A stretch of 64,000 nucleotides of DNA from Bacilli bacterium (GCA_016295795.1 JAEDKN010000003.1:1680-65679); one strand, 5' to 3'; shown: positions 23,380 to 35,518, counted from the stretch's first letter. The notes: generated by a model from the sequence alone, not told the origin. Translations and numbers: made by a program.

Positions 23380-24902
23380 TATTCTTCCCCTCCATCCCAT
23401 GGTTTAATCATCGATTCAATAAAAGTAATTTCCTCATCATTTAAAGAAAATTTTTCATATAACTTTTTATCATTCCATTCTTCTTTAAAGTCCAATAATG
23501 GAACAAAGCAAAATTTATCTCTTGTAATATTCATTGATGTTAAAGCTTGCAATAATAAGAATCTAGCAAATTTTGTATGAAGATAATTCTCCAAATTTTG
23601 TGCTTCAATAATATTGTCATATTCTCCAACACATAAGTAAGATTCTGTACAAACATATTTAGGTTCTAAAAGAGCTACTTTAGCCAAAACCTTTACTTGA
23701 CCGTTTTCATCTGTTTCTCCAATATGTCCAGATAAAGCTTTACCTATAATAACCTTATATTTGTCTATTAAATTTTTTCCAGTAGTAACTTTTTCTTCTT
23801 CAATATATGAATTACCTTTACTAGATACTAAGAATAAATCATTATCTTGAAATTCTTCATGACCTCTTTCAAAAGAATCTAATCCAAATGGCTTTCTTGA
23901 TGTAATTATTTCAGATAACATCTTATATCCACTATCATTGATTTTATGAATAATCGATAAAGCATCATTATATCGTATAAATAATTCAAATTCATTTAAT
24001 TTACGATTTTGAACTATTCTATCTTTTCCTATAACATTAGTAAATTCACAATCACCATTATATTGTTTATCCCATAAGAAATACATTACACCACCACTTA
24101 TATTATTAGATGGGAAGCAATCTTTAGCATTAGGATAATCAACTATTTTAGAAAATCTTCTGTCATTTAAAGTTTCTTCTCTAAAAGCATCTAAACCTTT
24201 TCCTCCGGCAAACCATCGTGAAGGAATAATCATCGATAAGTATCGAGGTTGTAATTTAATAGCTTGGCTTATAAATAATTGATATATAGGTTTTGCACTA
24301 GATCCATTTCCACCATCTGATAATTGATATGGTGGATTTCCAATAATAACGTCAAATTTCATATTAAATATCTCCTCAACTTTCTTAGTGTGTATAAATT
24401 CATATGCGTGAGTTTCTAAATCTTCTGTTCTATTATATTGAAGTTTAGATGCACCGCAATAATAACATTTGTCACCAACCCATGAGTGATTAACTTTTTT
24501 AAATCTAATATTTCCCTCAGAATTGTCGAATTTTGCAATTGAATATTCGCCATTTGGCCATTTAGAACAATAAACACTTCTTCTAGATACCAAACTTGTT
24601 AATTCAGTTATTGATATTCCATATAATTGTTTTTTAAAGATATGTTCAATTCTTTCATCTAAATCAGGAATTTGATTTTCAAGACCAACAATTAATCTTT
24701 TAGCAATTTCTCTTAGGAAAACGCCGGTTTTACATGCAGGATCTAAAAAAGTAGTATCTGGATTTTTAAATAATTCTTGAGGTAACAAATCTAACATAGC
24801 ATTTACCACATCAGGTGTAGTAAAAACCTCATCATTCGATAAATTTGCTAAACAAGATAACACATCTGGATTATATAAATTTTCTAATAAACCATTATTC
24901 AT
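23379..24902 (-). CDS. N6-adenine DNA methyltransferase (Eco57I/TaqI-like gamma class) with C-terminal specificity region
   Basis: Motif X TTPDVVNAMLDL, motif I FLDPACKTGVFL, motif IV VIIGNPPYQ; ~250-aa C-terminal TRD-like part. Confidence 0.8.
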   Translation of the reverse strand: MNNGLLENLYNPDVLSCLANLSNDEVFTTPDVVNAMLDLLPQELFKNPDTTFLDPACKTGVFLREIAKRLIVGLENQIPDLDERIEHIFKKQLYGISITELTSLVSRRSVYCSKWPNGEYSIAKFDNSEGNIRFKKVNHSWVGDKCYYCGASKLQYNRTEDLETHAYEFIHTKKVEEIFNMKFDVIIGNPPYQLSDGGNGSSAKPIYQLFISQAIKLQPRYLSMIIPSRWFAGGKGLDAFREETLNDRRFSKIVDYPNAKDCFPSNNISGGVMYFLWDKQYNGDCEFTNVIGKDRIVQNRKLNEFELFIRYNDALSIIHKINDSGYKMLSEIITSRKPFGLDSFERGHEEFQDNDLFLVSSKGNSYIEEEKVTTGKNLIDKYKVIIGKALSGHIGETDENGQVKVLAKVALLEPKYVCTESYLCVGEYDNIIEAQNLENYLHTKFARFLLLQALTSMNITRDKFCFVPLLDFKEEWNDKKLYEKFSLNDEEITFIESMIKPWDGGEE

Positions 24903-24903
24903 A

Positions 24904-25554
24904 TTAATTAATTCCTCCTAAATTTCTATAATGAGCTATATATTGCTTTAAAAATTTTCCGTTTTTTTCATTATCGGAAAGTAAAGATAATTGTGATTCA
25001 TCCTTGTTTACTAGTTCATCAAAAGTATAATCTTTTCTTTGCATTCTTGCATCATTAAATGGGAAAGTCCACTCCGAAAAAACTATAGGATCACTTATAT
25101 CATTTCCATTCTCGTCAACTTTTAACAATGTTAGTGCATTTCCACAAACTATATTTTTACTTAATATATATTTTGCTGAATTAACTGTTTGTTCATTATA
25201 ATCTTTTTTACAATTTTTTTTATATGTCCTATCCCACAAATCGAAAAGTCTATCTCTACATGTTATTACATTATCATTCAAAAGTTCTACACCATATAAA
25301 CTCCCAATAGCTAACAATGAAAATCTTTCAAAATCATAACTACTTTTTTTATACTTTTTCTCAACAATAGTCAATTTTCGTTTTAATATTTCAATTAAAA
25401 AATTTCCATCACCACATGCAGGCTCCAAAAACCTAGAATCAATTCTTTCAGTTTCTTGCAATACAAGATCACACATAGCATTTACTTCTCTTTCATTTGT
25501 AAATACTTCTCCGTGGTCTGCTACTCTTTCTTTAGACTTAACTTGTTTTCCCAT
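24904..25554 (-). CDS. Methyltransferase-like protein with the SAM-binding half only (no NPPY motif)
   Basis: GEVFTNEREVNAMCDL (motif X), FLEPACGDGNFL (motif I), NIVCGNAL. Ends before any (D/N)PP(Y/F). Start trimmed to the ATG at 25554 (SD GGGGTGAG). Confidence 0.55.
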   Translation of the reverse strand: MGKQVKSKERVADHGEVFTNEREVNAMCDLVLQETERIDSRFLEPACGDGNFLIEILKRKLTIVEKKYKKSSYDFERFSLLAIGSLYGVELLNDNVITCRDRLFDLWDRTYKKNCKKDYNEQTVNSAKYILSKNIVCGNALTLLKVDENGNDISDPIVFSEWTFPFNDARMQRKDYTFDELVNKDESQLSLLSDNEKNGKFLKQYIAHYRNLGGIN

Positions 25555-25647
25555 AAACTCACCCCAATTCAAGTTTTATATCACGTGTTTATTATAACAC
25601 ATAAATACAATTTTCCCTATAACTTTAAGGAAATTACACAATTATAA

Positions 25648-25714
25648 TCCCACATTTGTACCCCTTTTAGTACCCATAAATGAACCTTGCATAAAACTAC
25701 TAAAATGATACAAT
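25648..25714 (+). promoter_or_regulatory. Promoter/operator module R1 (rightward, toward xis-int)
   Basis: TTGCAT (25687-25692) -16 nt- TACAAT (25709-25714). Upstream GTACCCCTTTTAGTACCC and ATGAACC. Inverted homolog of 19975-20060. Confidence 0.45.
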
Positions 25715-25742
25715 ATTATAAACTAGAGAAAATTGTATATAA

Positions 25743-25768
25743 GAAAGGAATTACTCCTTTCTTTTTTT
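25743..25768 (+). terminator. Intrinsic terminator in the xis-int leader
   Basis: GAAAGGA-attac-TCCTTTC followed by TTTTTTT. Lies between the R1 promoter and the xis SD. Confidence 0.6.
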
Positions 25769-25784
25769 GTTGGGAGGAATGAAT

Positions 25785-26015
25785 ATGTCTATTGAGGAAA
25801 CAATTAATCTATTAAAAAAACAATGGTGTTCTATCGAAGATCTAATGAAATTAGCACAAGTTAGTAGAACTAAGGCTTATAACATTAAAAATGATATTAG
25901 TGAAAATTTAGAAGAACAAGGATTTAAATTACCATTAGGTTTATTACCTATGATAGAAGTCGTTAAATATCTAAGAATTGATTTAGATTACTTGGAAAGA
26001 ATGTCAAAACTATAA
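25785..26015 (+). CDS. Excisionase-like small HTH protein
   Basis: 76 aa immediately upstream of the integrase. WCSIEDLMKLAQVSRTKAYNIKNDI is HTH-like. Start at the ATG 6 nt after GGGAGGA. Confidence 0.55.
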   Translation: MSIEETINLLKKQWCSIEDLMKLAQVSRTKAYNIKNDISENLEEQGFKLPLGLLPMIEVVKYLRIDLDYLERMSKL

Positions 26016-26136
26016 TTTGCCTATTGCATGAGATGAGAGGCAAAATGATTTTGAAATTTTAATATTTTGTGCTATGGTGGAGTTGTCAAAAGATTGGCTA
26101 ACAAAACTTTAAGCAGAAAATCAAGGAGGATGAAAT

Positions 26137-27270
26137 ATGTCTGTTAAACAAGTAAAAAAAGAGTTAGCCACTAAAGACGGTAGACGTTGGATATTTTATA
26201 TTAGAGCCGAAGATAATATGGGAATAAAGAAAAAGTATAATTCAAAGAAATATATGACTAGAAAAGAAGCCGAAGAAGCTGAAAAAGAGTTTAAAATTAA
26301 GATGGCTAAAAAAGAATTAAATCTATCTGACATGACTTTTAAAGATCTTTGGGAAGAATTTTATGATTATAAAATGGATAAGGTTAAGAAAAATACATTA
26401 TATGGTTACAGAAAAAATATATGTAGATTAGAATACTTTATGAAAATTAAAATCAAAGACCTATCAATACAAGATTATCTTTTTTGGAGAAGTACAATAG
26501 TTAAATTACCATTAGCGGTTAAAACAAAAAATGGATATTATAAACTATTAAAAGCTATTTTAAACTATGGAGTTAAATGGCACGATTTCAATTTTACGAG
26601 TATATATAATAAAATGGAAAAGTTCACTGATCCTAATGGTATGGTAAAAGAAATGAAATTCTATACACCAGAAGAATTTAAAAAATTTATTTCTTGTGAA
26701 GATGAACTTCAATTCATTACTTTCTTTAAGACATTATATTTTTGTGGATTAAGAATTGGAGAAATATCTGCTCTAACTTGGGAAGATATAGATTTAGATA
26801 AACATACTATAACTATAAATAAAAGTTTATCTTATATTGAAGGAGAATATTATACTTCTAGACCTAAAACTAAAAACAGTATAAGAACATTACCAATGCC
26901 TAACTCTTTATATGAAGATTATGTTAAATTTTATGAAGAATCAAAAAAATATTATAATTTCAAAAATTCATGGTACGTATTTGGTCAAACAAAACCTTTC
27001 AGTGGTGAGTATTTAAGAAAAAGAAAAAGAAGAATAGCTGATGAAGCTGGAGTTAAACAAATAAGAATACATGATTTTAGGCATAGTTGTGCTTCATTAC
27101 TCATTAATAATGGTGCTAATGTTATGGTTGTAGCAAAATATCTTGGCCATGCTAAAATTGATGTAACATTAAATACCTACTCTCATCTATTCAATAATAA
27201 GATGGAAGATATAGTTAACTTAGTTGATAAAGTGTACACAGAAGAACAAACTGAGACTGATATGAACTAA
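26137..27270 (+). CDS. int: Tyrosine site-specific integrase
   Basis: GLRIGEISALTWEDID (Arg I), IRIHDFRHSCASLL (HxxR), LGHAKIDVTLNTYSHL (His/Tyr). N-terminal SAM-like domain. Confidence 0.9.
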   Translation: MSVKQVKKELATKDGRRWIFYIRAEDNMGIKKKYNSKKYMTRKEAEEAEKEFKIKMAKKELNLSDMTFKDLWEEFYDYKMDKVKKNTLYGYRKNICRLEYFMKIKIKDLSIQDYLFWRSTIVKLPLAVKTKNGYYKLLKAILNYGVKWHDFNFTSIYNKMEKFTDPNGMVKEMKFYTPEEFKKFISCEDELQFITFFKTLYFCGLRIGEISALTWEDIDLDKHTITINKSLSYIEGEYYTSRPKTKNSIRTLPMPNSLYEDYVKFYEESKKYYNFKNSWYVFGQTKPFSGEYLRKRKRRIADEAGVKQIRIHDFRHSCASLLINNGANVMVVAKYLGHAKIDVTLNTYSHLFNNKMEDIVNLVDKVYTEEQTETDMN

Positions 27271-27388
27271 TATGAATTACCACGAAAAACAACATTAAAA
27301 AAATACCATTTTTTTAACAAATTTTCCGTTTTGTCATCTAAAATGGTATCTAAAATTTTAAGAAATCGCTAAAAACCCCGTAAATACA

Positions 27389-27422
27389 ACAAAAATGCCG
27401 GCACAGGGCCGGCTTCAGGGGG
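27389..27422. repeat. Left copy of an imperfect direct repeat (candidate att / terminator-like module)
   Basis: ACAAAAATG + GCCGGC-acagg-GCCGGC hairpin + (C)TTCAGGGGG (the hairpin's last C is the first base of CTTCAGGGGG). The same flanks with a different GC hairpin recur at 37730-37764. Confidence 0.5.
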
Positions 27423-27480
27423 CGCTTTTAAAATCATACTTCTGCCTTTCTCTGATTGGTAAAACATGGTTCTACAATTC

Positions 27481-27552
27481 CCCTCAGTTCCCTGAATTTT
27501 CCCTCGTTTTCCCTCATTTTCCCTATTTTAGTGGTTGAGTGGGTGGTTGAAA
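27481..27552 (+). promoter_or_regulatory. Module A: degenerate copy of the ICE promoter/operator module upstream of the xis pseudogene
   Basis: Four TTCCCT boxes, CCCTATTTTAGTGG (27521-27534), GGGTGGTTGAAA (-35-like TTGAAA at 27547-27552). No convincing -10 at 16-17 nt. Confidence 0.4.
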
Positions 27553-27616
27553 TGAAAAATTGTTACCTAAACCTAGATTTTGGTTACCTAAATTTTATAG
27601 AAAGGAGAAAAACAAA

Positions 27617-27837
27617 ATGAAAGAAATAATAACTTATGAAGAATTAAGAAAGATAACTTCTCAAGCTTGGTTATCAGTAAATGATATAATGAAAATCACT
27701 TCAACAAGTAAACGTGCAGCATATAAAATTAAAAACTCTATTAAAGAAGATTTACTAAAAAAGGTTATTACATACCTAATGCACTATTACCTACAAGAGA
27801 AGTATTAGAATATTTAAAAATTAAAGACTCAAAATAA
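27617..27837 (+). pseudogene. Frameshifted homolog of the ICE xis-like gene
   Basis: From the ATG at 27617 (SD AAAGGAG): MKEIITYEELRKITSQAWLSVNDIMKITSTSKRAAYKIKNSIKEDLLKK parallels 25785..26015. After the A6 run (~27759-27764) homology continues in another frame (GYYIPNALLPTREVLEYLKIKDSK vs GFKLPLGLLPMIEVVKYLRID). Confidence 0.6.
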
Positions 27838-27853
27838 ATTGAATCTTTCTTAT

Positions 27854-29731
27854 TTAATTATTAATTCTTTTTAGATAATCTTGCATTCCTTTATCTACAC
27901 AGTAAACATAACAACCTTTCATACCTCTAGTCATTAATGTTCTATAGGTATTTTTTATTATGTTATCAGCAATTTTATTAGCTACTTCTTCGCCTTGTTC
28001 ATTAGCAATCTTCTTAATACCATTTAATGACGTATCTGTTTTAGCACGCTTAGTATAATCTGTTACTATATGACCATCTTCATATCTTAAATCATCACCA
28101 ATTATAACACCAACATAATCAAATTCTAATCCTTGACATGTATGAATGCAACCAACTTCATTAACTGATTCAGCATCAATTGCCCATGTAGTTGAATTTC
28201 CTAAATTCCAACTCATTCCAAAATTAAACTCAGGTATTTCTATATCATGAATTTCAGTATTATTTTTACCTTCACTAATCCAGTTCCAACAATAACCTGC
28301 TACTATTCTTGATTTATTATTTTCTTTGTTTTTTTCTTCAATTAATCTTCGAACTTCATTAGGATCATCTAATACTCTAAAGTCATAATCAAATCCATCT
28401 ATATCAAAATTAGCAGTATCTTTAATATCTAATACTCTATCTAACCATGCAATATACCCATCTGATCCATTACATCTAAATTGACTATCTAAATCAAATG
28501 TATAAATACCTGCTCCTGCTTCATTAGCAAACTTTTTAATTAAATCTTCACTACCAATATCTTTTAAAGTAACTTTTTGATTTTCATCTATAAAGAATAC
28601 AGAAAACTTAGCAGCATTTATAATTTCTTTAATTTGATTTTCACCTTTATTTTGAAACATACCAGATTTAGCATTTAATCTATGAGCTTCATCAACAACT
28701 AAACAATCTAGTTTATTTCTTTCTTCATCTATAAAACTTCCTGAACCTTGGAATAAGTGATTAATATATGTTTGAGTAAAATCTCCTCTTAATTTAGAAG
28801 AATATACACTTCTAGGTGCTGCATTTTTAGTAACATAAAAACAAGTCATATTTCTATTATTTAATTCAACTAATAAATTAACTGCAAGTACTGATTTTCC
28901 TGTACCAGGTCCACCTCTTACTATCATTACATTTTTTTCATTTCTAGATACTGTATCAATAGCATTTCTTAAAGCATATTCATAGACAATTTTTTGATTA
29001 TCAATCATATAGAATTCTCTATTACCTTTTAACATATTTCTTAAAGAATCTTGCAACATTTTAGATGGTCTAATTCTTCCATGATCTATCTCATATAGGA
29101 TATTACCATCATCACCAGTTTCAATATATTTTTTAATAAAATTTCTTAAATTAACAACATCATTATGTCCAAATAATGGCGCTTTATCAGTATATTCTTT
29201 ATATGTATTACTTTTTAATGTATCATCTTCTTCAAAATAATAATTATGAAGATATGCACATGGCACGACATTGATATCTTTTAATTGTACAGCTTCATTA
29301 TAATCTTTAATTAAATTAGCATAAGTCATAGCTTGATATGAAGGATGATTAACATCTCTCATTCCACCACCAGTATAAGTATTTACCTTATAAATACCAT
29401 CCATTTCTCCTACTTCAGTAGCTTTATCCCATTGTTTTAATTCTATTATAACAACATTTGATTTATCTTTATTGTAACCAGACATCATAAAATCGATTCT
29501 ACAACCAGTTGGAGGTATATTATATTCAATAGCTATACCAGTATTATTAGGTATTTCAGAATCACTTAAAACACCTCTCATATATTGCATAGAATTTTTC
29601 CACGAATTAAACTCTGGTACACTAGGTCTTTTCTTTACTACTTCAATATATTTATTTCTTATTTTATCAGCAATTATTCCTAAATCTACATCATCAATAA
29701 ATCCTGATTTAATTCCTTCATATACTAACAT
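27854..29731 (-). CDS. PD-(D/E)xK-like nuclease domain + DUF2075 P-loop ATPase/helicase-like protein
   Basis: N-terminal CRIDFMMSG...VVIIELKQW (D...ExK). GGPGTGKS Walker A, VVDEAHRL Walker B. C-terminal GVIIGDDL...YRTLMTRGMKGCYVY typical of DUF2075. Start at the ATG at 29731 (SD GAGGAG). Confidence 0.75.
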   Translation of the reverse strand: MLVYEGIKSGFIDDVDLGIIADKIRNKYIEVVKKRPSVPEFNSWKNSMQYMRGVLSDSEIPNNTGIAIEYNIPPTGCRIDFMMSGYNKDKSNVVIIELKQWDKATEVGEMDGIYKVNTYTGGGMRDVNHPSYQAMTYANLIKDYNEAVQLKDINVVPCAYLHNYYFEEDDTLKSNTYKEYTDKAPLFGHNDVVNLRNFIKKYIETGDDGNILYEIDHGRIRPSKMLQDSLRNMLKGNREFYMIDNQKIVYEYALRNAIDTVSRNEKNVMIVRGGPGTGKSVLAVNLLVELNNRNMTCFYVTKNAAPRSVYSSKLRGDFTQTYINHLFQGSGSFIDEERNKLDCLVVDEAHRLNAKSGMFQNKGENQIKEIINAAKFSVFFIDENQKVTLKDIGSEDLIKKFANEAGAGIYTFDLDSQFRCNGSDGYIAWLDRVLDIKDTANFDIDGFDYDFRVLDDPNEVRRLIEEKNKENNKSRIVAGYCWNWISEGKNNTEIHDIEIPEFNFGMSWNLGNSTTWAIDAESVNEVGCIHTCQGLEFDYVGVIIGDDLRYEDGHIVTDYTKRAKTDTSLNGIKKIANEQGEEVANKIADNIIKNTYRTLMTRGMKGCYVYCVDKGMQDYLKRINN

Positions 29732-29735
29732 AAAT

Positions 29736-30335
29736 TTACTCCTCACTTAAATACAAATTAGCTTGATATTGCATAGCATATATAACATTTATTATTATTT
29801 CTAAAAAATTAATAATTTGCTTAGCATCAGTTTCATTAAAAATAACTATTTCATGTGTTGCCTCATTACCTTTGTTTCTAATTATATCAACCCAACTTTT
29901 ACAATTTTTAGGAATATAATTATTTTTATCTAAAAAATCTACATATTCAATAAACTTTTTACCTTCTTCCGCTCCACAATCCACTGCAATATGCATCAAT
30001 AATTTACGAGCAGATAAAACACATGACGAAAATGCTGAAGCTTTATAGCAATTTCTAACTTCATCATATAAATGAAAAGTCTTTTCATCAGGAAATATCT
30101 TTTCAGAAAAACTTTTTCCATATTTATACATTGGAACTTGATTGTTCCAATCGATATAAGTTGGATAGTTACAATTATGGCATATATAAATATATCCTCG
30201 TTTATTTGGTTTACCAGAACTACTCCAATCTGTTAAGTAGTAACCTACATTAGAACTTATTTTTTCGCCGCAATATCCACATATAAAACTTTTACTGTCT
30301 AACTCAGAAGTATTTTTCCAATAAATTCCATTCAT
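29736..30335 (-). CDS. Zn-ribbon + DUF4145 domain protein
   Basis: CGYCGEK...CHNCNYP (CxxC...CxxC). C-terminal SARKLLMHIA...WVDIIRNKGNEATHE matches the DUF4145 R..GN...H signature. Start at the ATG at 30335 (SD AGGTGA). Confidence 0.65.
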   Translation of the reverse strand: MNGIYWKNTSELDSKSFICGYCGEKISSNVGYYLTDWSSSGKPNKRGYIYICHNCNYPTYIDWNNQVPMYKYGKSFSEKIFPDEKTFHLYDEVRNCYKASAFSSCVLSARKLLMHIAVDCGAEEGKKFIEYVDFLDKNNYIPKNCKSWVDIIRNKGNEATHEIVIFNETDAKQIINFLEIIINVIYAMQYQANLYLSEE

Positions 30336-30344
30336 ATATATCAC

Positions 30345-30659
30345 CTACAATTTATTATATTTTGTGCTATTACCTTTCGCTTTTTCTATTTCATATTTTT
30401 TAGCATTCTTTTTATATTTATCTAAAACTATTTGTTCTAAATCAACATCAAGTTTTTCAGCTAACATAATACAATAAGCTTGAACATCTGCTAATTCTTC
30501 AACTAATTCTTGTTTATCAAATTCATTATTCCATTGAAAACATTCTAATAATTCTCCTGCTTCAATAGAAATAGATTTAGCAAGATTTTCTGGAGTATGA
30601 AATTGACTCCAATCTCTTTCTTTATTAAATTCATCTATTACTCTTTTTGCTTCATTCAT
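30345..30659 (-). CDS. MazG-like nucleoside-triphosphate pyrophosphohydrolase (small all-alpha dCTPase/YpjD type)
   Basis: 104 aa. RDWSQFHTPENLAKSISIEAGELLECFQW and EELADVQAYCIMLA (EExxE/D metal-binding pairs). Confidence 0.8.
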   Translation of the reverse strand: MNEAKRVIDEFNKERDWSQFHTPENLAKSISIEAGELLECFQWNNEFDKQELVEELADVQAYCIMLAEKLDVDLEQIVLDKYKKNAKKYEIEKAKGNSTKYNKL

Positions 30660-30686
30660 AAGTAACACCTCTATATATATTTTAAC

Positions 30687-30710
30687 ATAAAAAAGCTAAT
30701 TTCTTAGCTT
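30687..30710 (-). terminator. Weak hairpin + U-tract overlapping the NUDIX stop (possible partial terminator)
   Basis: Minus strand AAGCTAA-gaaa-TTAGCTT followed by TTTTAT. Followed by TGtTAAAAT (rc 30679-30687), an extended -10-like sequence. Confidence 0.35.
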
Positions 30711-31090
30711 TCATTAGTAATTTTTTCTACAAAATATATATCTGCAGGAGCAAATTCATAATTTTCAAATTCTTCTTTTGTAATCCATGCAATTTGTTCA
30801 TGTTCTAAGACATCATAAGATTCTCCTATCATAGAACATTTAAGAACAATTAAATTTATTGTTTTATCTGGATATTCATATATTTTTTTATCAAAATATC
30901 CATCACAAATAATATTCATATTTAGTTCTTCTTTTATTTCTCTCACAATAGCATCTTCTTTACTTTCATTTTTTTCTATTTTACCTCCAGGAAATTCCCA
31001 TAAACCTCCTTGAGATTTTTTTAGACTTCTTTGTGCAATTAATATTTTCCCTTCTTTATTTGTTATTATTGCTGCTACTACATCTATCAT
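30704..31090 (-). CDS. NUDIX hydrolase (MutT/NudG-like (d)NTP pyrophosphohydrolase)
   Basis: NUDIX box GGKIEKNESKEDAIVREIKEELN. ATG overlaps the helicase stop (TAATG). Confidence 0.85.
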   Translation of the reverse strand: MIDVVAAIITNKEGKILIAQRSLKKSQGGLWEFPGGKIEKNESKEDAIVREIKEELNMNIICDGYFDKKIYEYPDKTINLIVLKCSMIGESYDVLEHEQIAWITKEEFENYEFAPADIYFVEKITNES

Positions 31091-33840
31091 TAATCTTTCA
31101 CCTTTTCTGGTATTTCAAAATCTAAATGATATTCTTCTGGTACTTCATTATCCAAAATAATATCAAATAATAAAGTTTGATGCTTAACTCCATTTTCTTC
31201 AGTAAATGAACTTCTTTCATTAGTAAATGTTCCTAATCCAAAATAAGTATAAGGAAGTGTTACTGAATCTTCACTTTCCATTTTTCTAATAAATAAGTGA
31301 ACTTTTTTTGAATTTCTTAAATGTTCTTTTTCACTTTCAGATATATTAGCTATACTTTCCCATTGGAATGTAGAATCATTTATAAATTTATCTTTATAAT
31401 TTAATTTACCTTCTTGATCTTTTTTTATTCCTGCAAATATATATGCTATATCATCTTTATAATAAGTACCTTTTTGAAGAATACCATTTTTTAACATAAT
31501 TCGAGATGCTTGTTCCTTATAATAGTTTCTATATAATTTAAACAAACCTTCATATTCTCCAAATTCTCTATTATATCTTGTTATACCATAATTTAATACA
31601 TCTTCTAAATATCTAATAAATTCTTTATTAGATTTATTAAAATACCATTCTCCATTTTCATTAACGATATTTAAAGACACTAAATTATCATATGCGTTTT
31701 TCAATGTTAAGTTAGTAATATGACTATTGATACCTTCTAATCTTTTTAAATCTATTTTATCTTCTTTTAACATTTGATTAATAATTAAATACTCATCTAA
31801 TCTGGCAATTGGTAATAAATCTTCTATTTTATTAATAATATCTATTTCTATGTCATTAAACATAGGAATGTTTTCTTCTCCTATTTTCAATAAAAAATTG
31901 TAATAAGATTTATTCTTAGAATTATTTAGTGATGATTTTATTATTCTTATTAAATCAGGTGCAACATCTGAATTTAAGAAATCCATATGTGTTGGATATG
32001 TTCCGCTATTTATATAAGATTTAAAATTTTGATAATCTTTTTCTAAAAAAACTTTAGAATTAAAATTAGTCTTATCTATATAATTCAATATTTCTTCTTT
32101 TGATAATTCATCAATATCAATAACAACATTAGGTATATCTAATGATTTAAAATCACTTCTAATCATTTGTTTTAAATATGCTTTTTCCATATAAGTTGTT
32201 TTTCCTAATGTTCCTAATGCTAATGCAATTTGAACTGCTCTATCATAATTATTTCCGATAAAATCTAATACAGTAACATATTCTTTACCTGGATATTTTC
32301 TTAAACCTCTACCTAATTGTTGAATAAATATTGTTTGAGATTCAGTTGGTCTTAAGAATAAAACCATATTAACTTGTGGTATATCAACACCTTCATTAAG
32401 AATATCTACAGTACAAATAATTTCTAACGGATTATTATCATCTTGTAAATCTCTAAATGCTTTCATTCTTATTCCAGTATCATTAATTCCTGTTAATGAT
32501 ATTGTTTGATATCCTTCTTCAAATAGTTCTTCAGCCATTAATTTAGAACTTTGAATATTGGTACAAAACGCTATACATTTTAATTTTTCATTTGGTTTTC
32601 TATGTTTTTCAATTTGTTCTTTAATAAATTCAATATTCTCTTGATTTGCTATTTGATTAGCAATTACCATTTTATCCTTTGAATTATAATCAACTAGTTG
32701 ATCTCTTATTCCATAATAATGAAATGGAACAACTAAATCATTGCTAATAGCATCTCTTAATCTTAATTCAAACGGAACATTTTGATCAAATAATCCAAAT
32801 ATATCTTGATTATCCATTCTCTCAGGAGTAGCTGTTAATCCTAACATAAATTCAGGTTTAAAGAATTCAAATATCTTCTTACCTGTATTTGCAACTATAT
32901 GATGTACTTCATCATATATAATATAGTCAAATTCTTCAGGACTAAATTCTTCAATATGTTTAGCTAACATTGTATTAGTTGCAAAAACAAAATCAGCATC
33001 CAAACTTTTTTCATTTCCAGTAAAGAATCCATAAGTTCTCTCAGCACCAAATACTGTTATAAATGAATCTCTAGCATCTTTCAAAATTGTTTCTCTATGA
33101 ACAATATATAGTAATCTTTTAGCACCAAAATTTCTTACATCAAAAGCTGCTAGATATGTTTTTCCGGAACCAGTAGCACTTATAATAAGCGATCTTTTAA
33201 TTCCCATATTTCTATATCTTCTTAATTCCCTTAAAGCTTTTCTTTGCATAGAATTTGGATTAATTGTTGTATCAGATATATTTATATAATCCATATCCCA
33301 TCTTTCAATAGCGTAATCCAATTGTAATTTATATTTTTCAATAAGACTATTTTCTAAAGGTAAAGTTTCTTTCCATAAATAAACAAAATCTTCCATAGCT
33401 TGATTATATGATTCCATTTTTTCTTTTGAATAAAGTGATACATTCCACTCTACATTTTTTAATAAAGCAAATCTTGTTATATTTGTCGAACCTACAATAA
33501 ATTCATAAGAATCCTCATATTCAAACAAATAACCTTTCGAATGAAATCCATTATCTCCAAAACATTCATAATCTAAATGACATTCAAAATGAGGATATTT
33601 ACTTTGTAAATTCATAAAGTATTCCAAAGAAGCAATATCTGTAAAATTTTGATATGTAGAAGTAATTAATTTTCCCTTCACTCCTCTTTCTAAAGCTTCT
33701 TCTAATTCCCTTTCAAATAGAATTAATCCTGCTTTTTTTATAAAACTAACAGAAAAAGAAAATGAATCACATTTTTTTAAACTATCAATTATTTTGTTCA
33801 AAAACATTTGGTCTTTATTTGTTAAAAATAAATCTTTCAT
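31090..33840 (-). CDS. PLD(HKD)-family nuclease domain + SF2 helicase + DUF3427-type C-terminal domain
   Basis: HSKGYLF...IVGSTNIT (HxK...GSxN). SATGSGKT Walker A, YDEVHH (DExH), helicase C motifs (QQLGRGLR). ~300-aa C-terminal region as in DUF3427 proteins. Confidence 0.8.
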   Translation of the reverse strand: MKDLFLTNKDQMFLNKIIDSLKKCDSFSFSVSFIKKAGLILFERELEEALERGVKGKLITSTYQNFTDIASLEYFMNLQSKYPHFECHLDYECFGDNGFHSKGYLFEYEDSYEFIVGSTNITRFALLKNVEWNVSLYSKEKMESYNQAMEDFVYLWKETLPLENSLIEKYKLQLDYAIERWDMDYINISDTTINPNSMQRKALRELRRYRNMGIKRSLIISATGSGKTYLAAFDVRNFGAKRLLYIVHRETILKDARDSFITVFGAERTYGFFTGNEKSLDADFVFATNTMLAKHIEEFSPEEFDYIIYDEVHHIVANTGKKIFEFFKPEFMLGLTATPERMDNQDIFGLFDQNVPFELRLRDAISNDLVVPFHYYGIRDQLVDYNSKDKMVIANQIANQENIEFIKEQIEKHRKPNEKLKCIAFCTNIQSSKLMAEELFEEGYQTISLTGINDTGIRMKAFRDLQDDNNPLEIICTVDILNEGVDIPQVNMVLFLRPTESQTIFIQQLGRGLRKYPGKEYVTVLDFIGNNYDRAVQIALALGTLGKTTYMEKAYLKQMIRSDFKSLDIPNVVIDIDELSKEEILNYIDKTNFNSKVFLEKDYQNFKSYINSGTYPTHMDFLNSDVAPDLIRIIKSSLNNSKNKSYYNFLLKIGEENIPMFNDIEIDIINKIEDLLPIARLDEYLIINQMLKEDKIDLKRLEGINSHITNLTLKNAYDNLVSLNIVNENGEWYFNKSNKEFIRYLEDVLNYGITRYNREFGEYEGLFKLYRNYYKEQASRIMLKNGILQKGTYYKDDIAYIFAGIKKDQEGKLNYKDKFINDSTFQWESIANISESEKEHLRNSKKVHLFIRKMESEDSVTLPYTYFGLGTFTNERSSFTEENGVKHQTLLFDIILDNEVPEEYHLDFEIPEKVKD

Positions 33841-34008
33841 ATAATCATCTCACTCAATTAAATTATACCAGAATGTATACTTTTAAACTAGATCTCTAAG
33901 GAATTTTTAATATTTAATTTTAACCTATCTAATGAAAAGAAAAAGAATTATTGATTATAGTTATATATATTGTAAAAAAGAATCTAAAAACAAAGATGCC
34001 TTATTCCG

Positions 34009-35418
34009 TTAAAGACCTAGAGCATCTATTTTTCGTTTACTTGCACTTTCTTTTTTTCTACCATCCACTTCAATTAATTCAATTTTAGTGTTCTTATATT
34101 TTTGCATAGCATTTTTAAAATTAGTTACTCTTTGATCGTGGTCACCTAAATCTATAAATAAATATATTCCTTTTTCTATTTCTTCTTGAGCCATATATAC
34201 TGGAATTTGCACCTCATAACAATGTGATAATTGATTATTAGAAGATTTTTTTATTTCAACTATAGTTTTATTTTTATAGCCAGAGCTAATTTTAAAATCT
34301 ACAGGACCGCTACCATTATTATTTTCTCTACTAATATCTATATCATTTGCTTTACAATATGAATCTGCTATTCCAAAAAAAAGATTTTGACTATGCGATT
34401 CACTTAATACTAAACCATTATCATCATATAATGATTTCCATAGCCCCTTTTCCTCAATTAAATATTTAAATTGATTACAAATTTTTTTAGTCAATTCATA
34501 AACATCTATATTTTTATCGATATTTAAAGGATTTTCTCTTACATAATCTTTAGATATATAATACCATTTTATTTCACCATTTTTATCTACCGAAAAATCA
34601 TATGATTCAATTTCATCTTCTCTATATTTTTCCAGAAAAGATTCAAAAAATTTTTCGTTACCCATAAACAATCTTTTAAATTCCTTCTTTGTATATTTTT
34701 TTCTTTTATTAGATGTGTTTAAATAACTAGAAAACTCTCTTCTTATTTTTTCATTAAAAGAAGAAACATAATCAATATCACTAAAATCTTCAGCAATTGG
34801 TAAATCTAGCAATAATTCTCTATCTATTACAAGTATTGGCTGATTATTATACTCATTTTTTGGTAGTTTATACACTTTATCTTTATATTTATAATCTTCT
34901 TTTTTTACTTCAAAATTAGAAAAAATATATTCTGAATACAGATAGATATTTTCCTTAATACTATTTAATATAATATCGCTTATCCTGTCACTTCCTATGC
35001 CTTTTTCAAATACACACATCACTTCAAAAATTTCCGGAAAATCTTTTTCTATATCTACAAATTCTTTTACAACTAGAATAATTTTTTCTGCTATTTCTTC
35101 CGATATACCTGAGCCTCTATCACTTTTCCTAGCATAACCTAATGATAAACCTTTTTCTTCTTTAGAAACTAATCTTTTAACCGCTTCATTCCAGTATCTA
35201 TCATTTTTGCTTTTCGAAGTTTTTAATAGTCTTAAAATTATACTAAACTGTTCCAAAATATTGTCATAACATCTCTTAAAATACTCATTTGTTGTCCTTT
35301 TTAATAACATAGGTGAAACAAATAATTTTGAATTTATATCCAAGAAGCTATCAAACGCACCTAATCCATCATATTTTTTCTTATCTATTTCTAAATAATC
35401 TGTAATAGTTATAGCCAT
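34009..35418 (-). CDS. Hypothetical protein with a C-terminal PD-(D/E)xK nuclease-like motif
   Basis: SESHSQNLF...GPVDFKIS...TIVEIKKS (E...D...ExK spacing). ~340-aa N-terminal region with no motif recognised. Start trimmed to the ATG at 35418 (the track extension runs through the upstream terminator). Confidence 0.55.
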   Translation of the reverse strand: MAITITDYLEIDKKKYDGLGAFDSFLDINSKLFVSPMLLKRTTNEYFKRCYDNILEQFSIILRLLKTSKSKNDRYWNEAVKRLVSKEEKGLSLGYARKSDRGSGISEEIAEKIILVVKEFVDIEKDFPEIFEVMCVFEKGIGSDRISDIILNSIKENIYLYSEYIFSNFEVKKEDYKYKDKVYKLPKNEYNNQPILVIDRELLLDLPIAEDFSDIDYVSSFNEKIRREFSSYLNTSNKRKKYTKKEFKRLFMGNEKFFESFLEKYREDEIESYDFSVDKNGEIKWYYISKDYVRENPLNIDKNIDVYELTKKICNQFKYLIEEKGLWKSLYDDNGLVLSESHSQNLFFGIADSYCKANDIDISRENNNGSGPVDFKISSGYKNKTIVEIKKSSNNQLSHCYEVQIPVYMAQEEIEKGIYLFIDLGDHDQRVTNFKNAMQKYKNTKIELIEVDGRKKESASKRKIDALGL

Positions 35419-35440
35419 ATTTACACACCCTTTCCTACTA

Positions 35441-35483
35441 AAAAACACCAATACAACACTTGTTAATCAAGTTTGTACTGGTG
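35441..35483 (-). terminator. Intrinsic terminator after the ATPase-RloB operon
   Basis: Minus strand CACCAGTACAAACTTG-attaa-CAAGTGTTGTATTGGTG followed by TTTTT. Confidence 0.6.
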
Positions 35484-35518
35484 CCTTATTACTTCTTAAC
35501 TTATTTAGAGAATTATCA

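What the first reader, a model, noticed from the sequence alone, without database searches (positions are those of the whole stretch)
27854..30659. Tightly coupled MazG + Zn-ribbon/DUF4145 + PD-(D/E)xK-DUF2075 ATPase module: candidate undescribed three-gene defence system
Seen: three minus-strand genes separated by only 9 nt and 4 nt, each with its own SD. Gene 1 is a 104-aa MazG-type NTP pyrophosphohydrolase (EAGELLE / EELADV pairs). Gene 2 has a CxxC...CxxC ribbon plus the DUF4145 R..GN..THE signature. Gene 3 has an N-terminal RIDF...IIELKQW nuclease-like motif fused to a GGPGTGKS / VVDEAHRL DUF2075 core. Established: DUF2075 and DUF4145 proteins recur in defence islands, and nucleotide-hydrolysing enzymes are used in nucleotide-depletion immunity. 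Inference: this could be a sensor (DUF4145), a nuclease/motor effector (DUF2075) and a nucleotide hydrolase acting as one unit. I cannot match this three-gene architecture to a named system from memory. It sits in a defence island at a mobile-element junction near the window centre.
Basis: partly seen in the sequence, partly recalled or inferred. Interest (0 to 1): 0.72.

Follow-up and report, generated by a model that had tools for sequence, protein, structure and literature searches.

The report
MazG–helicase-nuclease pair hosting a RAZR gene
The three genes are real, but they are a widely conserved, apparently undescribed two-gene unit (a small nucleotide-cleaning enzyme plus a DNA-cutting helicase) that here has a separate, already known antiviral gene (RAZR) slotted between its two genes.

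Summary
Three minus-strand genes lie 9 and 4 nt apart, each with its own SD, and all quoted motifs are present.

The reading as one three-gene system is only partly supported.
- Gene 1 is a DCTPP1-like MazG.
- Gene 3 has a RecB-like PD-(D/E)xK nuclease head on a DUF2075 SF1B helicase. This is the Nhi/Nhi-like architecture, but it is not an Nhi orthologue.
- The two genes are neighbours across many bacterial phyla: about 51 of 70 informative species genomes and 62 of 67 informative metagenome loci. They are usually directly abutting, in either order.
- Near-identical MazGs also pair with GIY-YIG-headed DUF2075 proteins.
- I found no paper describing this pairing.

Gene 2 is a RAZR (PD-T7-4) homologue, a published single-gene abortive-infection RNase. 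Its relatives elsewhere sit alone or in prophages.

In close relatives of this module the same intergenic position is empty or holds about 16 unrelated genes (AbiU2, AIPR, HNH, Mrr, reverse transcriptase, ABC ATPase and others). DNA homology breaks exactly at the MazG stop and the helicase start.

Best reading: a new MazG-plus-nuclease-helicase defence pair with a variable cargo slot, here carrying RAZR. The role of MazG (sanitising or destroying modified dCTP-type nucleotides) is inferred, not shown.

The parts
30345..30659 (-). MazG-like all-alpha (d)NTP pyrophosphohydrolase, 104 aa, homologue of DCTPP1/RS21-C6. It is the conserved partner of the DUF2075 protein.
   Evidence: Pfam PF12643 1.7e-19. 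PDB dCTP pyrophosphatase 1 (2a3q/6sqw) 1.1e-17 over residues 3-103. E33, E36, E39, E55 and D58 are conserved in at least 93% of 116 partner MazGs. Adjacent to DUF2075 in about 51/70 and 62/67 informative loci.
30336..30344 (-). 9-nt junction between the MazG stop and the gene 2 start. This is the upstream edge of the variable cargo slot.
   Evidence: DNA homology to relatives that carry other middle genes ends within about 15 nt of the MazG stop.
29736..30335 (-). RAZR (PD-T7-4)-like protein, 199 aa. It has an N-terminal Cys4 zinc ribbon and a C-terminal DUF4145 HEPN RNase domain. It is the cargo gene in the slot.
   Evidence: Pfam DUF4145 2e-10. PADLOC PD-T7-4 4.6e-8, residues 10-187 against profile positions 7-179 of 211. 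C19, C52, C55, R153 and H161 are invariant and C22 nearly so in 42 homologues. The AF2 model has pLDDT 90.6, and its best PDB match is RAZR in the RAZR:Gp77 complex, 9y9c (E 0.011, prob 0.90), followed by HEPN toxins.
29732..29735 (-). 4-nt junction between the gene 2 stop and the DUF2075 start. This is the downstream edge of the cargo slot.
   Evidence: DNA homology to relatives resumes 0-18 nt before the DUF2075 start codon.
27854..29731 (-). Nuclease-helicase, 625 aa. It has an N-terminal RecB-like PD-(D/E)xK domain (E69, D80, E97-x-K99, Q133-xxx-Y137) and a DUF2075/SLFN-group-3 SF1B helicase (Walker A GGPGTGKS, Walker B VVDEAH).
   Evidence: Pfam PF09848 4.6e-108. E69, R78, D80, E97, K99, K279, D347 and E348 are invariant in 60 diverse homologues. 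The AF2 model has pLDDT 92.6 and pTM 0.91. Its best PDB matches are SLFN11, RecD2, Dna2, SLFN14, Ighmbp2, Upf1 and Dda. PADLOC Nhi, AbiO and PDC-S41 match only in part, at about 1e-14.
27816..27848 (-). Terminator-like hairpin (10-bp stem) and U-run just after the DUF2075 stop.
   Evidence: strand folding gives dG -10.6 kcal/mol, z -3.1. It was not found by the stricter G+C-rich scan.
30689..30712 (-). Terminator-like hairpin over the NUDIX stop codon, 30-50 nt upstream of the MazG start. It probably separates the NUDIX/SauUSI-like unit from the MazG unit.
   Evidence: strand folding gives dG -8.5 kcal/mol, z -3.1. Module-level DNA homology to relatives begins only about 30 nt upstream of MazG.
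30704..33840 (-). Neighbouring unit, not part of the trio but recurrently linked to it. It comprises a SauUSI-like type IV restriction enzyme (PLD + helicase + DUF3427, 916 aa) and a NudG/MutT-like NUDIX hydrolase (128 aa).
   Evidence: PADLOC mREase_IV 2.9e-117 and PDC-S07 3.9e-47. Pfam and NCBIfam agree. The same pair flanks MazG-DUF2075 in L015, L016, L018, L019, L087, L106, L118 and L128.

Best explanation
The locus is a composite of two things.

(1) A conserved two-gene module. It consists of a DCTPP1-like MazG nucleotide pyrophosphatase and a nuclease-helicase. The nuclease-helicase has a RecB-like PD-(D/E)xK head on a DUF2075/Schlafen-type SF1B helicase, the same architecture as the antiphage proteins Nhi and Nhi-like.

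(2) A RAZR (PD-T7-4) gene sitting in a variable cargo slot exactly between the two module genes and co-transcribed with them.

Shown here:
- MazG and the DUF2075 protein are inherited together across many bacterial phyla. They usually abut, with overlapping or near-overlapping stop and start codons, in either gene order.
- The slot is empty in most lineages.
- In the gut/rumen Bacillota clade nearest the window, the slot holds many unrelated defence-type genes.
- RAZR relatives live alone elsewhere.

Inferred mechanism:
- The nuclease-helicase loads on phage DNA and degrades it with ATP-driven translocation, as reported for Nhi. The substrate would be replication intermediates or DNA with non-canonical bases.
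- MazG acts through the nucleotide pool rather than as a specificity subunit. It would hydrolyse dCTP-type nucleotides with 5-modified bases.
- That hydrolysis could do either of two things. It could keep modified bases released from degraded DNA out of the host chromosome, preventing self-attack. Or it could deny phages their modified precursors.
- RAZR acts independently as a second layer. It assembles on ring-shaped phage proteins and cleaves RNA, giving abortive infection.
For: Anatomy.

MazG
- It is a DCTPP1 homologue.
- Its metal-binding residues are conserved in 116 partner MazGs. The aromatic positions that align with DCTPP1 W47, W73 and Y102 are conserved too.

Nuclease-helicase
- Nuclease and Walker residues are invariant in 60 homologues of 31-55% identity.
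- The confident model matches SF1B helicases including the nuclease-helicase Dna2.
- The architecture equals that described for Nhi (10.1101/776245) and Nhi-like (10.1101/2022.05.11.491447).

Co-conservation of the pair
- Species genomes: 33 directly upstream, 12-13 directly downstream, 4 with an insert, 1 far and 19 without, out of 70 informative loci.
- Metagenome loci: 62 of 67.
- Pairwise identities of the two proteins correlate at r = 0.60 over 96 non-redundant pairs, against a permutation maximum of 0.12.
- No other neighbour family recurs in more than 5 loci.
- MazGs 77-85% identical to the window's pair with GIY-YIG-DUF2075 proteins.
- On B. cereus-group plasmids MazG pairs with a 26%-identical DUF2075.

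Slot
- About 16 unrelated occupant families were found, including HEPN_AbiU2, AIPR, HNH, RVT_1, AAA_21 and Mrr_cat.
- DNA homology breaks at the gene boundaries.
- The slot is empty in close relatives L107, L111, L114, L117 and L121.

RAZR
- Identity: and PMC13017515.
- Homologues occur in other contexts.

Link to modified-DNA restriction
- NUDIX + SauUSI-like or MrcB_N/HNH genes lie next to the pair in at least 10 loci.
- Lutz et al. noted DUF2075 genes next to modification-dependent enzymes (PMC6765204).
- Xu et al. noted at least 60 SauUSI-NUDIX linkages (PMC3141236).

Defence context
- Neighbours include type IV and type II R-M, AbiEi, PD-Lambda-5 and Fic candidates.
Against: - No experiment exists for this family. 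Defence activity, the MazG substrate and the nuclease's target are all inferred from homologues.
- About a quarter of species-level loci lack MazG, including all three archaeal ones (L008, L014, L037). The helicase-nuclease can therefore exist without it.
- Nothing in the nuclease-helicase resembles a known modified-base reader.
- Deleting the NUDIX gene next to SauUSI did not change restriction in S. aureus (PMC3312211). An accessory pyrophosphatase may therefore not be needed for the restriction phenotype itself.
- The tight translational coupling of RAZR (9 and 4 nt) is also what a true subunit would show.
- The structural match to RAZR is weak in absolute terms (TM 0.33-0.36).
Confidence: 0.62

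Rival explanations
1. One reading: a genuine three-component system. The middle protein is the exchangeable sensor or second effector of the MazG/DUF2075 machine. The analogy is the HEPN anticodon nuclease PrrC, which is embedded in and controlled by a type I restriction operon.
For: - The exchange at the slot is exact and keeps very short intergenic distances and SD sites.
- The trio recurs in different genomic contexts (L106, L171-L174).
- Two occupant families are HEPN RNases: RAZR and AbiU2.
- Three more carry an R-x4-H-like motif by eye (L001, L012, L116). This was not tested.
Against: - Most modules have no middle gene.
- The occupants are unrelated in fold and size (57-566 aa). They include complete enzymes, a membrane protein, and pseudogenised or deleted copies (L002, L011, L122).
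- RAZR is experimentally sufficient on its own in E. coli and senses its triggers directly (PMC13017515).
- RAZR homologues sit in prophages and other loci without the pair.
Confidence: 0.13
2. A nucleotide-depletion system. The DUF2075 protein senses infection and MazG is the effector. MazG empties the dCTP/dNTP pool to stop phage replication, as dCTP deaminase and dGTPase defence enzymes do.
For: - MazG is a conserved, catalytically intact partner.
- Depletion immunity is an established strategy (my own knowledge of Tal et al. 2022; not checked here).
Against: - The 104-aa MazG has no regulatory domain.
- Its homologues are constitutive house-cleaning enzymes.
- The nuclease residues of the partner are invariant, so the partner is itself an effector.
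- MazGs appear interchangeable between modules with different nuclease heads. The window's MazG is 85% identical to one paired with GIY-YIG-DUF2075, but only 62-70% identical to those paired with 72-93%-identical PD-(D/E)xK proteins. This argues against a specific activating interface.
Confidence: 0.12
3. Not immunity at all. The pair would be a DNA repair or replication-fork processing helicase-nuclease, with a pool-sanitising enzyme, that merely rides in mobile islands.
For: - The closest folds include Dna2 and RecD2.
- Many orthologues carry a LexA/UmuD-type Peptidase_S24 domain, which points to the DNA-damage response.
- MazG and NUDIX enzymes are classical house-cleaning enzymes.
Against: - The distribution across phyla is patchy and the module occurs on plasmids.
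- Its genomic positions differ between near-identical copies.
- It is embedded among restriction and Abi genes.
- Defence genes are inserted inside it.
- It has the same architecture as two experimentally validated antiphage proteins.
Confidence: 0.08
4. MazG belongs functionally to the neighbouring NUDIX/SauUSI-like type IV enzyme, and its adjacency to DUF2075 in the window is incidental.
For: - In L016 and L118 MazG lies upstream of the SauUSI-like gene rather than next to DUF2075.
- In the Priestia plasmid its start overlaps the stop of an MrcB_N/HNH type IV-like gene.
Against: - More than 100 loci have MazG directly next to DUF2075 with no SauUSI-like gene within 4-6 kb.
- A terminator-like hairpin separates NUDIX from MazG in the window.
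Confidence: 0.03

Closest known systems
RAZR (PD-T7-4), ring-activated zinc-finger RNase (Vassallo et al. 2022; Nature 2026, PMC13017515)
   Same: Gene 2 has the same size and two-domain layout: a Cys4 zinc ribbon followed by a DUF4145 HEPN domain. The catalytic Arg and His are 8 residues apart (R153/H161 against R146/H154). It matches the PADLOC PD-T7-4 profile along nearly its whole length. RAZR is the best structural match in the PDB.
   Different: The relationship is distant: about 16% identity in the structural alignment, and no hit by sequence search of the PDB. The host is a Gram-positive gut bacterium. Here the gene is embedded in another module's operon rather than standing alone. Its triggers and activity are untested.
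Nhi (S. epidermidis SERP2475; Bari et al. 2022) and Nhi-like (Millman et al. 2022)
   Same: Gene 3 has an N-terminal HsdR/RecB-like PD-(D/E)xK nuclease followed by a DUF2075 SF1B helicase in one polypeptide of about 600 aa. It resembles the same structures (Dda, Upf1, Dna2). It lies in a defence island or on a mobile element.
   Different: The PADLOC Nhi profile matches only the P-loop segment (residues 256-421, 7.8e-14). Gene 3 is therefore a separate DUF2075 lineage, not an orthologue. Nhi and Nhi-like were described as single-gene systems, whereas this lineage is usually paired with a MazG. Gene 3 lacks the glyoxalase/bleomycin-resistance-like C-terminal domain reported for Nhi.
DCTPP1 / RS21-C6 (mammalian dCTP pyrophosphatase 1) and house-cleaning MazG enzymes
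   Same: Gene 1 aligns over almost its whole length with DCTPP1 (1.1e-17). It has the same E-x2-E...E-x2-D metal site and aligned aromatic residues. DCTPP1 is known to prefer dCTP and 5-modified dCTP and to keep 5-methyl-dCTP out of DNA (PMC7162842, PMC13291643).
   Different: Gene 1 is bacterial, 104 aa, and encoded as the operon partner of a nuclease-helicase. Its substrate has not been measured.
SauUSI type IV restriction enzyme with its linked NUDIX hydrolase (Xu et al. 2011, PMC3141236; Monk et al. 2012, PMC3312211)
   Same: This is the same design principle: an ATP-dependent nuclease/helicase encoded next to a small (d)NTP pyrophosphohydrolase. A SauUSI-like/NUDIX pair lies immediately upstream in the window and next to MazG-DUF2075 in several other genomes.
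   Different: The protein families differ on both sides (PLD + SF2 + DUF3427 and NUDIX, against PD-(D/E)xK + SF1B and MazG). SauUSI has a known 5mC/5hmC reader domain, and gene 3 has none that I could recognise. The NUDIX function is also still unknown.
PrrC anticodon nuclease embedded in the EcoprrI type I restriction operon, and defence hotspots in P2/P4 and chromosomal islands (my own knowledge; not checked here)
   Same: A defence gene, often a HEPN RNase, is carried inside the operon of a DNA-targeting restriction system. Variable cargo lies between conserved flanks.
   Different: Here the flanks are the two genes of a two-gene module and the slot is a single intergenic junction of a few nucleotides. 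No functional dependence between cargo and host module is shown.

Membership tests
RAZR / PD-T7-4 | N-terminal Cys4 zinc-ribbon domain | tested here: met
   C19-x2-C22 and C52-x2-C55. C19, C52 and C55 are invariant and C22 is at least 90% conserved in 42 homologues. The model shows a beta-strand domain over residues 5-61.
RAZR / PD-T7-4 | C-terminal DUF4145 HEPN domain with the catalytic Arg and His (R146/H154 in RAZR-Ec) | tested here: met
   Pfam DUF4145 2e-10. R153 and H161 are invariant and have the same 8-residue spacing (PMC13017515).
RAZR / PD-T7-4 | Match to the family profile over the full length | tested here: met
   PADLOC PDLC04109 PD-T7-4: E 4.6e-8, residues 10-187 against profile positions 7-179 of 211.
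RAZR / PD-T7-4 | Fold similarity to the solved RAZR structure | tested here: inconclusive
   9y9c_OA is the top PDB hit (E 0.011, prob 0.90, 194 columns), but TM is only 0.33-0.36. HEPN toxins follow.
RAZR / PD-T7-4 | Works as a single gene; activated by ring-shaped phage proteins; cleaves ssRNA; abortive infection | not testable with these tools
   Indirect only. Homologues of 48-60% identity occur without MazG or DUF2075, one of them in a prophage next to the terminase gene.
Nhi / Nhi-like nuclease-helicase | N-terminal PD-(D/E)xK (HsdR/RecB-like) nuclease domain with catalytic residues | tested here: met
   E69, D80, E97 and K99 are invariant. Y137 is invariant, and H129, Q133 (the QxxxY motif) and W101 are invariant or nearly so in 60 sequences. 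The model has strands at 65-71, 78-87 and 90-99 carrying these residues. No domain-level fold search was possible.
Nhi / Nhi-like nuclease-helicase | DUF2075 (PF09848) SF1B helicase core | tested here: met
   PF09848 4.6e-108. Fold matches to SLFN11, RecD2, Dna2, Upf1 and Dda at 1e-11 to 1e-7.
Nhi / Nhi-like nuclease-helicase | Orthology to S. epidermidis Nhi (full-length profile match) | tested here: not met
   The PADLOC Nhi profile matches residues 256-421 only (profile positions 197-331 of 470; 7.8e-14). AbiO and PDC-S41 match similarly in part.
Nhi / Nhi-like nuclease-helicase | Stand-alone, single-gene system | tested here: not met
   This lineage has a MazG gene adjacent in about 73% of informative species loci and 93% of informative metagenome loci.
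MazG / DCTPP1 all-alpha NTP pyrophosphohydrolases | Family profile above the curated cut-off, and the E-x2-E...E-x2-D metal site | tested here: met
   PF12643 scores 70.3 bits against a cut-off of 27. E33, E36, E55 and D58 align with DCTPP1 E63, E66, E95 and D98 and are 97-100% conserved.
MazG / DCTPP1 all-alpha NTP pyrophosphohydrolases | [quoted passage not shown] | not testable with these tools
   Homology only. W17, W43 and Y62 align with DCTPP1 W47, W73 and Y102. My assignment of these residues to the base pocket is from memory.
Nucleotide-depletion defence (dCTP deaminase, dGTPase) | Effector is a dCTP deaminase or HD-type dGTPase that empties a dNTP pool on infection | tested here: not met
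   There is no deaminase or HD domain. The enzyme is a MazG-type pyrophosphatase. Pool depletion itself is not testable here.
Type IV (modification-dependent) restriction | A recognisable modified-base reader domain (SRA, DUF3427, MrcB_N, PUA/EVE and the like) in the nuclease | tested here: not met
   Pfam finds only the helicase and P-loop families in gene 3. Such readers are found only in neighbouring genes: DUF3427 in the 916-aa protein, and MrcB_N in L010.

The most novel reading that the evidence does not exclude
MazG + DUF2075 nuclease-helicase is a widespread, so far unnamed two-gene immune system found in many bacterial phyla, on plasmids and in candidate-phyla-radiation genomes. In it, a dCTPase-like house-cleaning enzyme would be the obligate partner of a DNA-degrading motor. 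It would either act as a built-in safeguard against self-attack or directly destroy phage-specific modified nucleotides. In addition, the few nucleotides between its two genes would serve in gut Bacillota as a dedicated exchange site. Whole immune genes (RAZR, AbiU2, AIPR, reverse transcriptase, HNH, Mrr, ABC ATPase) are swapped in and out there by recombination between the conserved flanks. That would be an operon-embedded defence hotspot.
Probability: 0.4. Interest if true: 0.75.

Novelty: new variant of a known kind. Interest (0 to 1): 0.6.

Why it matters
If the pairing is functional, it links two themes that have been studied apart: nucleic-acid-degrading immunity and control of the nucleotide pool.

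It would also give a testable answer to an old loose end. Small (d)NTP pyrophosphatases sit next to ATP-dependent restriction nucleases, and the reason is unknown. The NUDIX gene beside SauUSI was noted in 2011 and is still unexplained.

The proposed answer is that these enzymes stop modified bases recycled from destroyed DNA from entering the host genome, or take modified precursors away from phages. Mammalian DCTPP1 does the first job for 5-methyl-dCTP.

The variable slot matters in practice. Fifteen or more unrelated small genes occupy it, several with no known domain. This gives a short list of candidate new antiviral genes. It is also a clean natural example of immune genes exchanged as cassettes between conserved flanks.

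For annotation, 'Nhi-like' DUF2075 hits should be checked for a MazG partner. This DUF4145 gene should be called RAZR-like, not a subunit.

Tried and rejected
- Sequence search of the PDB with gene 3 found nothing at E <= 0.01.
- PDB sequence searches with gene 2, as a single sequence and as a 42-sequence profile, found only chance zinc-finger or crystallin hits. RAZR membership had to rest on the PADLOC profile and the fold search.
- The consensus promoter/terminator scan was uninformative in this A+T-rich DNA: 22 promoter-like sites against 30.5 expected, and no G+C-rich terminators. I folded the two candidate hairpins directly instead.
- A viral-contig scan for close relatives of gene 3 found none.
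- Full-text searches for DUF2075+MazG, DUF2075+DUF4145 and MazG+Nhi+defense found no paper. MazG combined with antiphage, helicase and defence-island terms produced no listed paper that contains MazG.
- A Druantia preprint that looked relevant was not.
- I considered that the middle genes might all be HEPN RNases. Only RAZR and AbiU2 are supported by profiles. L001, L012 and L116 have R-x4-H-like motifs by eye but no Pfam or PADLOC hit. Other occupants are clearly not HEPN.
- I looked for a third conserved partner of the pair. Clustering 481 neighbour ORFs gave no family present in more than 5 loci.
- I considered that MazG and DUF2075 co-evolve as a tight complex. The overall correlation is positive (r 0.60). 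Among close relatives, however, MazG is far more divergent than DUF2075, and the window's MazG is closest to ones paired with GIY-YIG proteins. I therefore favour a role through the nucleotide pool.
- The PADLOC scan of 134 flanking proteins reports family counts, not the fraction of proteins with a hit. It supports a defence-rich context only qualitatively.

Full report
**1. The observation**

The window has three consecutive minus-strand genes exactly as described.
- Gene 1: 30659..30345, 104 aa.
- Gene 2: 30335..29736, 199 aa.
- Gene 3: 29731..27854, 625 aa.

The gaps are 9 nt and 4 nt. Each start codon has an SD-like AGGTG or GAGGAG 6-8 nt upstream.

Pfam gives MazG-like (1.7e-19), DUF4145 (2e-10) and SLFN-g3_helicase, the current name of DUF2075 (4.6e-108).

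Two hairpins followed by U-runs bracket the trio. One lies over the stop of the upstream NUDIX gene and one just after gene 3 (dG -8.5 and -10.6 kcal/mol; z about -3.1 each). The three genes are therefore probably one transcript. This is an inference.

**2. The three proteins**

*Gene 1.* It aligns over nearly its whole length with mammalian dCTP pyrophosphatase 1 (DCTPP1/RS21-C6; 1.1e-17).
- Its E-x2-E...E-x2-D metal site aligns with E63, E66, E95 and D98 of DCTPP1.
- These residues, and three aromatic positions that align with W47, W73 and Y102, are conserved in 92-100% of 116 MazGs that sit next to DUF2075 genes.
- DCTPP1 prefers dCTP and 5-modified dCTP and keeps methylated dCTP out of DNA (PMC7162842, PMC13291643).

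*Gene 2.* It matches the PADLOC profile PD-T7-4 nearly end to end (4.6e-8).
- PD-T7-4 has been renamed RAZR. It has a Cys4 zinc ribbon plus a DUF4145 domain that is a divergent HEPN RNase with catalytic R146 and H154.
- RAZR works as a single gene. It assembles on ring-shaped phage proteins and cleaves RNA (PMC13017515).
- In gene 2 and 41 homologues the four cysteines, R153 and H161 are invariant or nearly so, with the same 8-residue spacing.
- A confident model (pLDDT 90.6) has RAZR from the RAZR:Gp77 complex as its best PDB match. The match is weak (E 0.011, prob 0.90, TM about 0.35) and is followed by HEPN toxins.

- In the nuclease domain E69, D80, E97-x-K99 and Y137 are invariant, and H129 and Q133 (a QxxxY motif) nearly so, in 60 homologues of 31-55% identity. 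This is the RecB/HsdR type of PD-(D/E)xK nuclease.
- The Walker A and B residues are invariant in the same alignment.
- The model is confident (pLDDT 92.6, pTM 0.91).
- It resembles SLFN11, RecD2, Dna2, SLFN14, Ighmbp2, Upf1 and Dda, that is, SF1B helicases including a nuclease-helicase.
- This is the architecture reported for the antiphage proteins Nhi (10.1101/776245) and Nhi-like (10.1101/2022.05.11.491447).
- The PADLOC Nhi profile matches only the P-loop segment. Gene 3 therefore belongs to a separate DUF2075 lineage.
- That lineage is large: 745 clusters (at 50% identity) with E <= 1e-30.

**3. Is the trio a unit?**

*First sign.* Near-identical copies of gene 3 (91-93% identity) in other assemblies have MazG upstream but a different middle gene of 369, 128 or 57 aa. 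They also lie in different genomic places.

*Species genomes.* I scanned one genome per species with a profile of the family and searched the 80 loci with the window proteins.
- Of 70 loci with enough flanking DNA, about 51 have MazG in the module.
- It is directly upstream in 33 (gap -4 to +28 nt), directly downstream in 12-13, upstream with an inserted gene in 4, and further away in 1.
- Nineteen have none, including the archaeal loci.
- No RAZR homologue was found in any of the 80.

*Metagenomes.* A metagenome scan for closer relatives gave MazG in 62 of 67 informative loci: 19 directly upstream, 21 upstream with an insert, 21 directly downstream and 1 further away.

*Co-inheritance.* Pairwise identities of the two proteins correlate at r = 0.60 over 96 non-redundant pairs, against a maximum of 0.12 in 200 label permutations. 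No other neighbour family recurs in more than five loci.

*Reverse look-ups.*
- MazGs 85% and 77% identical to the window's lie next to DUF2075 proteins with a GIY-YIG head instead of PD-(D/E)xK.
- A third MazG (71%) has no DUF2075 next to it.
- On B. cereus-group megaplasmids MazG lies next to a DUF2075 protein only about 26% identical to gene 3.

*Conclusion.* MazG plus a DUF2075 nuclease-helicase is the conserved unit. The link is to the helicase core, not to a particular nuclease head.

**4. The middle position**

In relatives with 63-93% identity in gene 3, the space between MazG and DUF2075 is either empty (L107, L111, L114, L117, L121) or occupied by one of about 16 unrelated families.
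- With a profile hit: RAZR (window, L106, L171-L174), HEPN_AbiU2 (9.5e-16), AIPR, HNH, reverse transcriptase, AAA_21/AAA_15 ATPase and Mrr_cat.
- Without one: a 264-aa membrane protein, a zinc-ribbon/coiled-coil protein, and several small proteins.
- The zinc-ribbon/coiled-coil gene is also seen with an internal deletion and as a pseudogene.

Nucleotide homology between the window and these relatives runs through MazG and stops at its stop codon. It resumes at the DUF2075 start codon.

RAZR homologues of 48-60% identity lie elsewhere: behind a Bro-N gene, in a Clostridium baratii prophage next to the terminase gene, and beside an unrelated ATPase. A 78%-identical RAZR is again in the trio, in other contexts.

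The middle position is therefore a cargo slot. RAZR is one cargo and is kept only in a narrow clade.

**5. How it most likely works**

*Shown.* The domain identities, the conservation of catalytic residues, the co-inheritance of MazG and DUF2075, the variability of the slot, and the independence of RAZR.

*Inferred.*
- The nuclease-helicase degrades invading DNA, as Nhi does.
- RAZR is an independent abortive-infection layer that shares the transcript.
- MazG works through the nucleotide pool.

*Two observations guide the MazG inference.*
- First, MazGs look interchangeable between modules. The window's MazG is 62-70% identical to those paired with 72-93%-identical PD-(D/E)xK proteins, but 85% identical to one paired with a GIY-YIG protein. 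This does not fit a highly specific protein interface.
- Second, the pair is repeatedly found with another nuclease-plus-pyrophosphatase pair, a SauUSI-like type IV enzyme and NUDIX (window, L015, L016, L018, L019, L087, L106, L118, L128). It is also found with MrcB_N/HNH or HNH genes plus NUDIX (L010, L183).

*Prior literature on these links.* The SauUSI-NUDIX linkage was noted long ago and is unexplained (PMC3141236). Deleting that NUDIX did not change restriction (PMC3312211). DUF2075 genes next to modification-dependent enzymes were also noted (PMC6765204).

*Favoured reading.* MazG hydrolyses 5-modified dCTP-type nucleotides. It would do this either so that bases recycled from degraded DNA do not enter the host chromosome and mark it for attack, or to starve phages that build modified DNA.

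*Weaknesses.* No modified-base reader is recognisable in gene 3. A quarter of species-level loci lack MazG.

**6. Rivals**
- A true three-part machine with an exchangeable middle subunit (confidence 0.13). The tight coupling and the analogy with PrrC inside a type I operon fit it. The empty slots, the heterogeneity of the cargo and the proven autonomy of RAZR weigh against it.
- MazG as a dNTP-depleting effector (0.12). The lack of any regulatory domain and the invariant nuclease in the partner weigh against it.
- A repair function rather than immunity (0.08). The Dna2/RecD2-like fold and the LexA-type S24 domain fused to many orthologues fit it. The patchy, mobile, island-embedded distribution does not.
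- MazG belonging to the type IV neighbour (0.03). More than 100 loci without that neighbour contradict it.

**7. Novelty and verdict**
- Gene 2 is a new member of a known family (RAZR).
- Gene 3 has a known architecture (Nhi-like) in a distinct lineage.
- I could not find two things described in the searchable literature: the conserved MazG partnership of DUF2075 nuclease-helicases, and the cargo slot between the two genes. That library lacks many subscription papers.
- I file the locus as a new variant of a known kind.

Noticed in passing
P0122, P0123, P0126 etc.; L038, L045, L051, L055, L057, L059, L062, L066, L068 (orthologues of window 27854-29731): Many orthologues of gene 3 are about 790-825 aa and carry a C-terminal Peptidase_S24 (LexA/UmuD-like) domain. 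This holds for 12 of the 17 long members scanned (best E 2.4e-23). It hints that in those lineages the nuclease-helicase is controlled by RecA-stimulated self-cleavage.
   Followed up: partly
L184-L192 (loci encoding MazG P0404 and P0505): MazGs 77-85% identical to the window's are paired with DUF2075 proteins that have a GIY-YIG head instead of PD-(D/E)xK. By contrast, MazGs paired with 72-93%-identical PD-(D/E)xK proteins are only 62-70% identical to the window's. MazG genes appear to be shuffled between module types.
   Followed up: partly
L016 817-7959; L118 116-5959: An extended cluster: MazG, a SauUSI-like enzyme, NUDIX, a second small PRA-PH/MazG-like protein (106 aa), an HNH protein (327 aa), and DUF2075. 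That makes three nucleotide pyrophosphatase-type genes among three nucleases.
   Followed up: partly
L010 2930-6836 (Priestia plasmid NZ_CP083270.1); L183 (B. thuringiensis plasmid NZ_CP083157.1): On Bacillaceae plasmids the order is NUDIX/MutT, then a type IV-like HNH nuclease, then MazG, then DUF2075. In Priestia the HNH nuclease is an MrcB_N + HNH protein. In B. thuringiensis an IS200/IS605 element is inserted before MazG and a zeta toxin lies nearby.
   Followed up: partly
window 37902-39893 and 20503-37422: The whole island lies directly downstream of recG. In relatives L003 and L005-L007 the MazG-X-DUF2075 module also lies just downstream of recG. This may be a recurrent integration hotspot in this lineage.
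   Followed up: no
window 25767-26015 and 27560-27808: Two paralogous small HTH/excisionase-like ORFs (82 aa each) flank the tyrosine integrase gene (26137-27270). The second has a divergent C-terminus. This possibly reflects two integrative elements in tandem, or a remnant of one.
   Followed up: no
window 34009-37422: Three further defence-type genes lie here. There is an AAA_21 ATPase (436 aa) with an RloB-like protein (203 aa). There is also a 480-aa protein with no Pfam domain that weakly matches the PADLOC candidate PDC-M36A (9.4e-10) and, below any sensible threshold (E 0.008), a Cas4 profile in its C-terminal part.
   Followed up: no
window 20503-25572: A 965-aa T5orf172 (GIY-YIG-like) + ResIII helicase protein is followed by an Eco57I-type methylase (507 aa) and a 222-aa MmeI_Mtase-like protein. 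The last could be a split or truncated methylase.
   Followed up: no
L003 7614-8000; L002/L004 7827-8000; L011 5673-6001; L122: The 128-aa coiled-coil + zinc-ribbon slot gene ends in a motif (CSNCNMVTYINY) that resembles the second zinc knuckle of the window's RAZR (CHNCNYPTYIDW). The gene occurs intact, with an in-frame internal deletion (57 aa), and interrupted by a stop or frameshift.
   Followed up: partly
L087 5221-5631: A peptide-deformylase-like ORF (136 aa, with EGCLS- and HEIDH-type motifs) sits between NUDIX and MazG in a SauUSI-like/NUDIX/MazG/DUF2075 cluster.
   Followed up: no
L011 4509-5345, L012 3204-4049, L013 2672-3523, L026, L078: A Fic-domain protein (about 280 aa; PADLOC PDC-S72 2.6e-81, PDC-S04) recurs just upstream of the module in five loci. 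In L011 an AbiEi-like gene lies beside it.
   Followed up: partly
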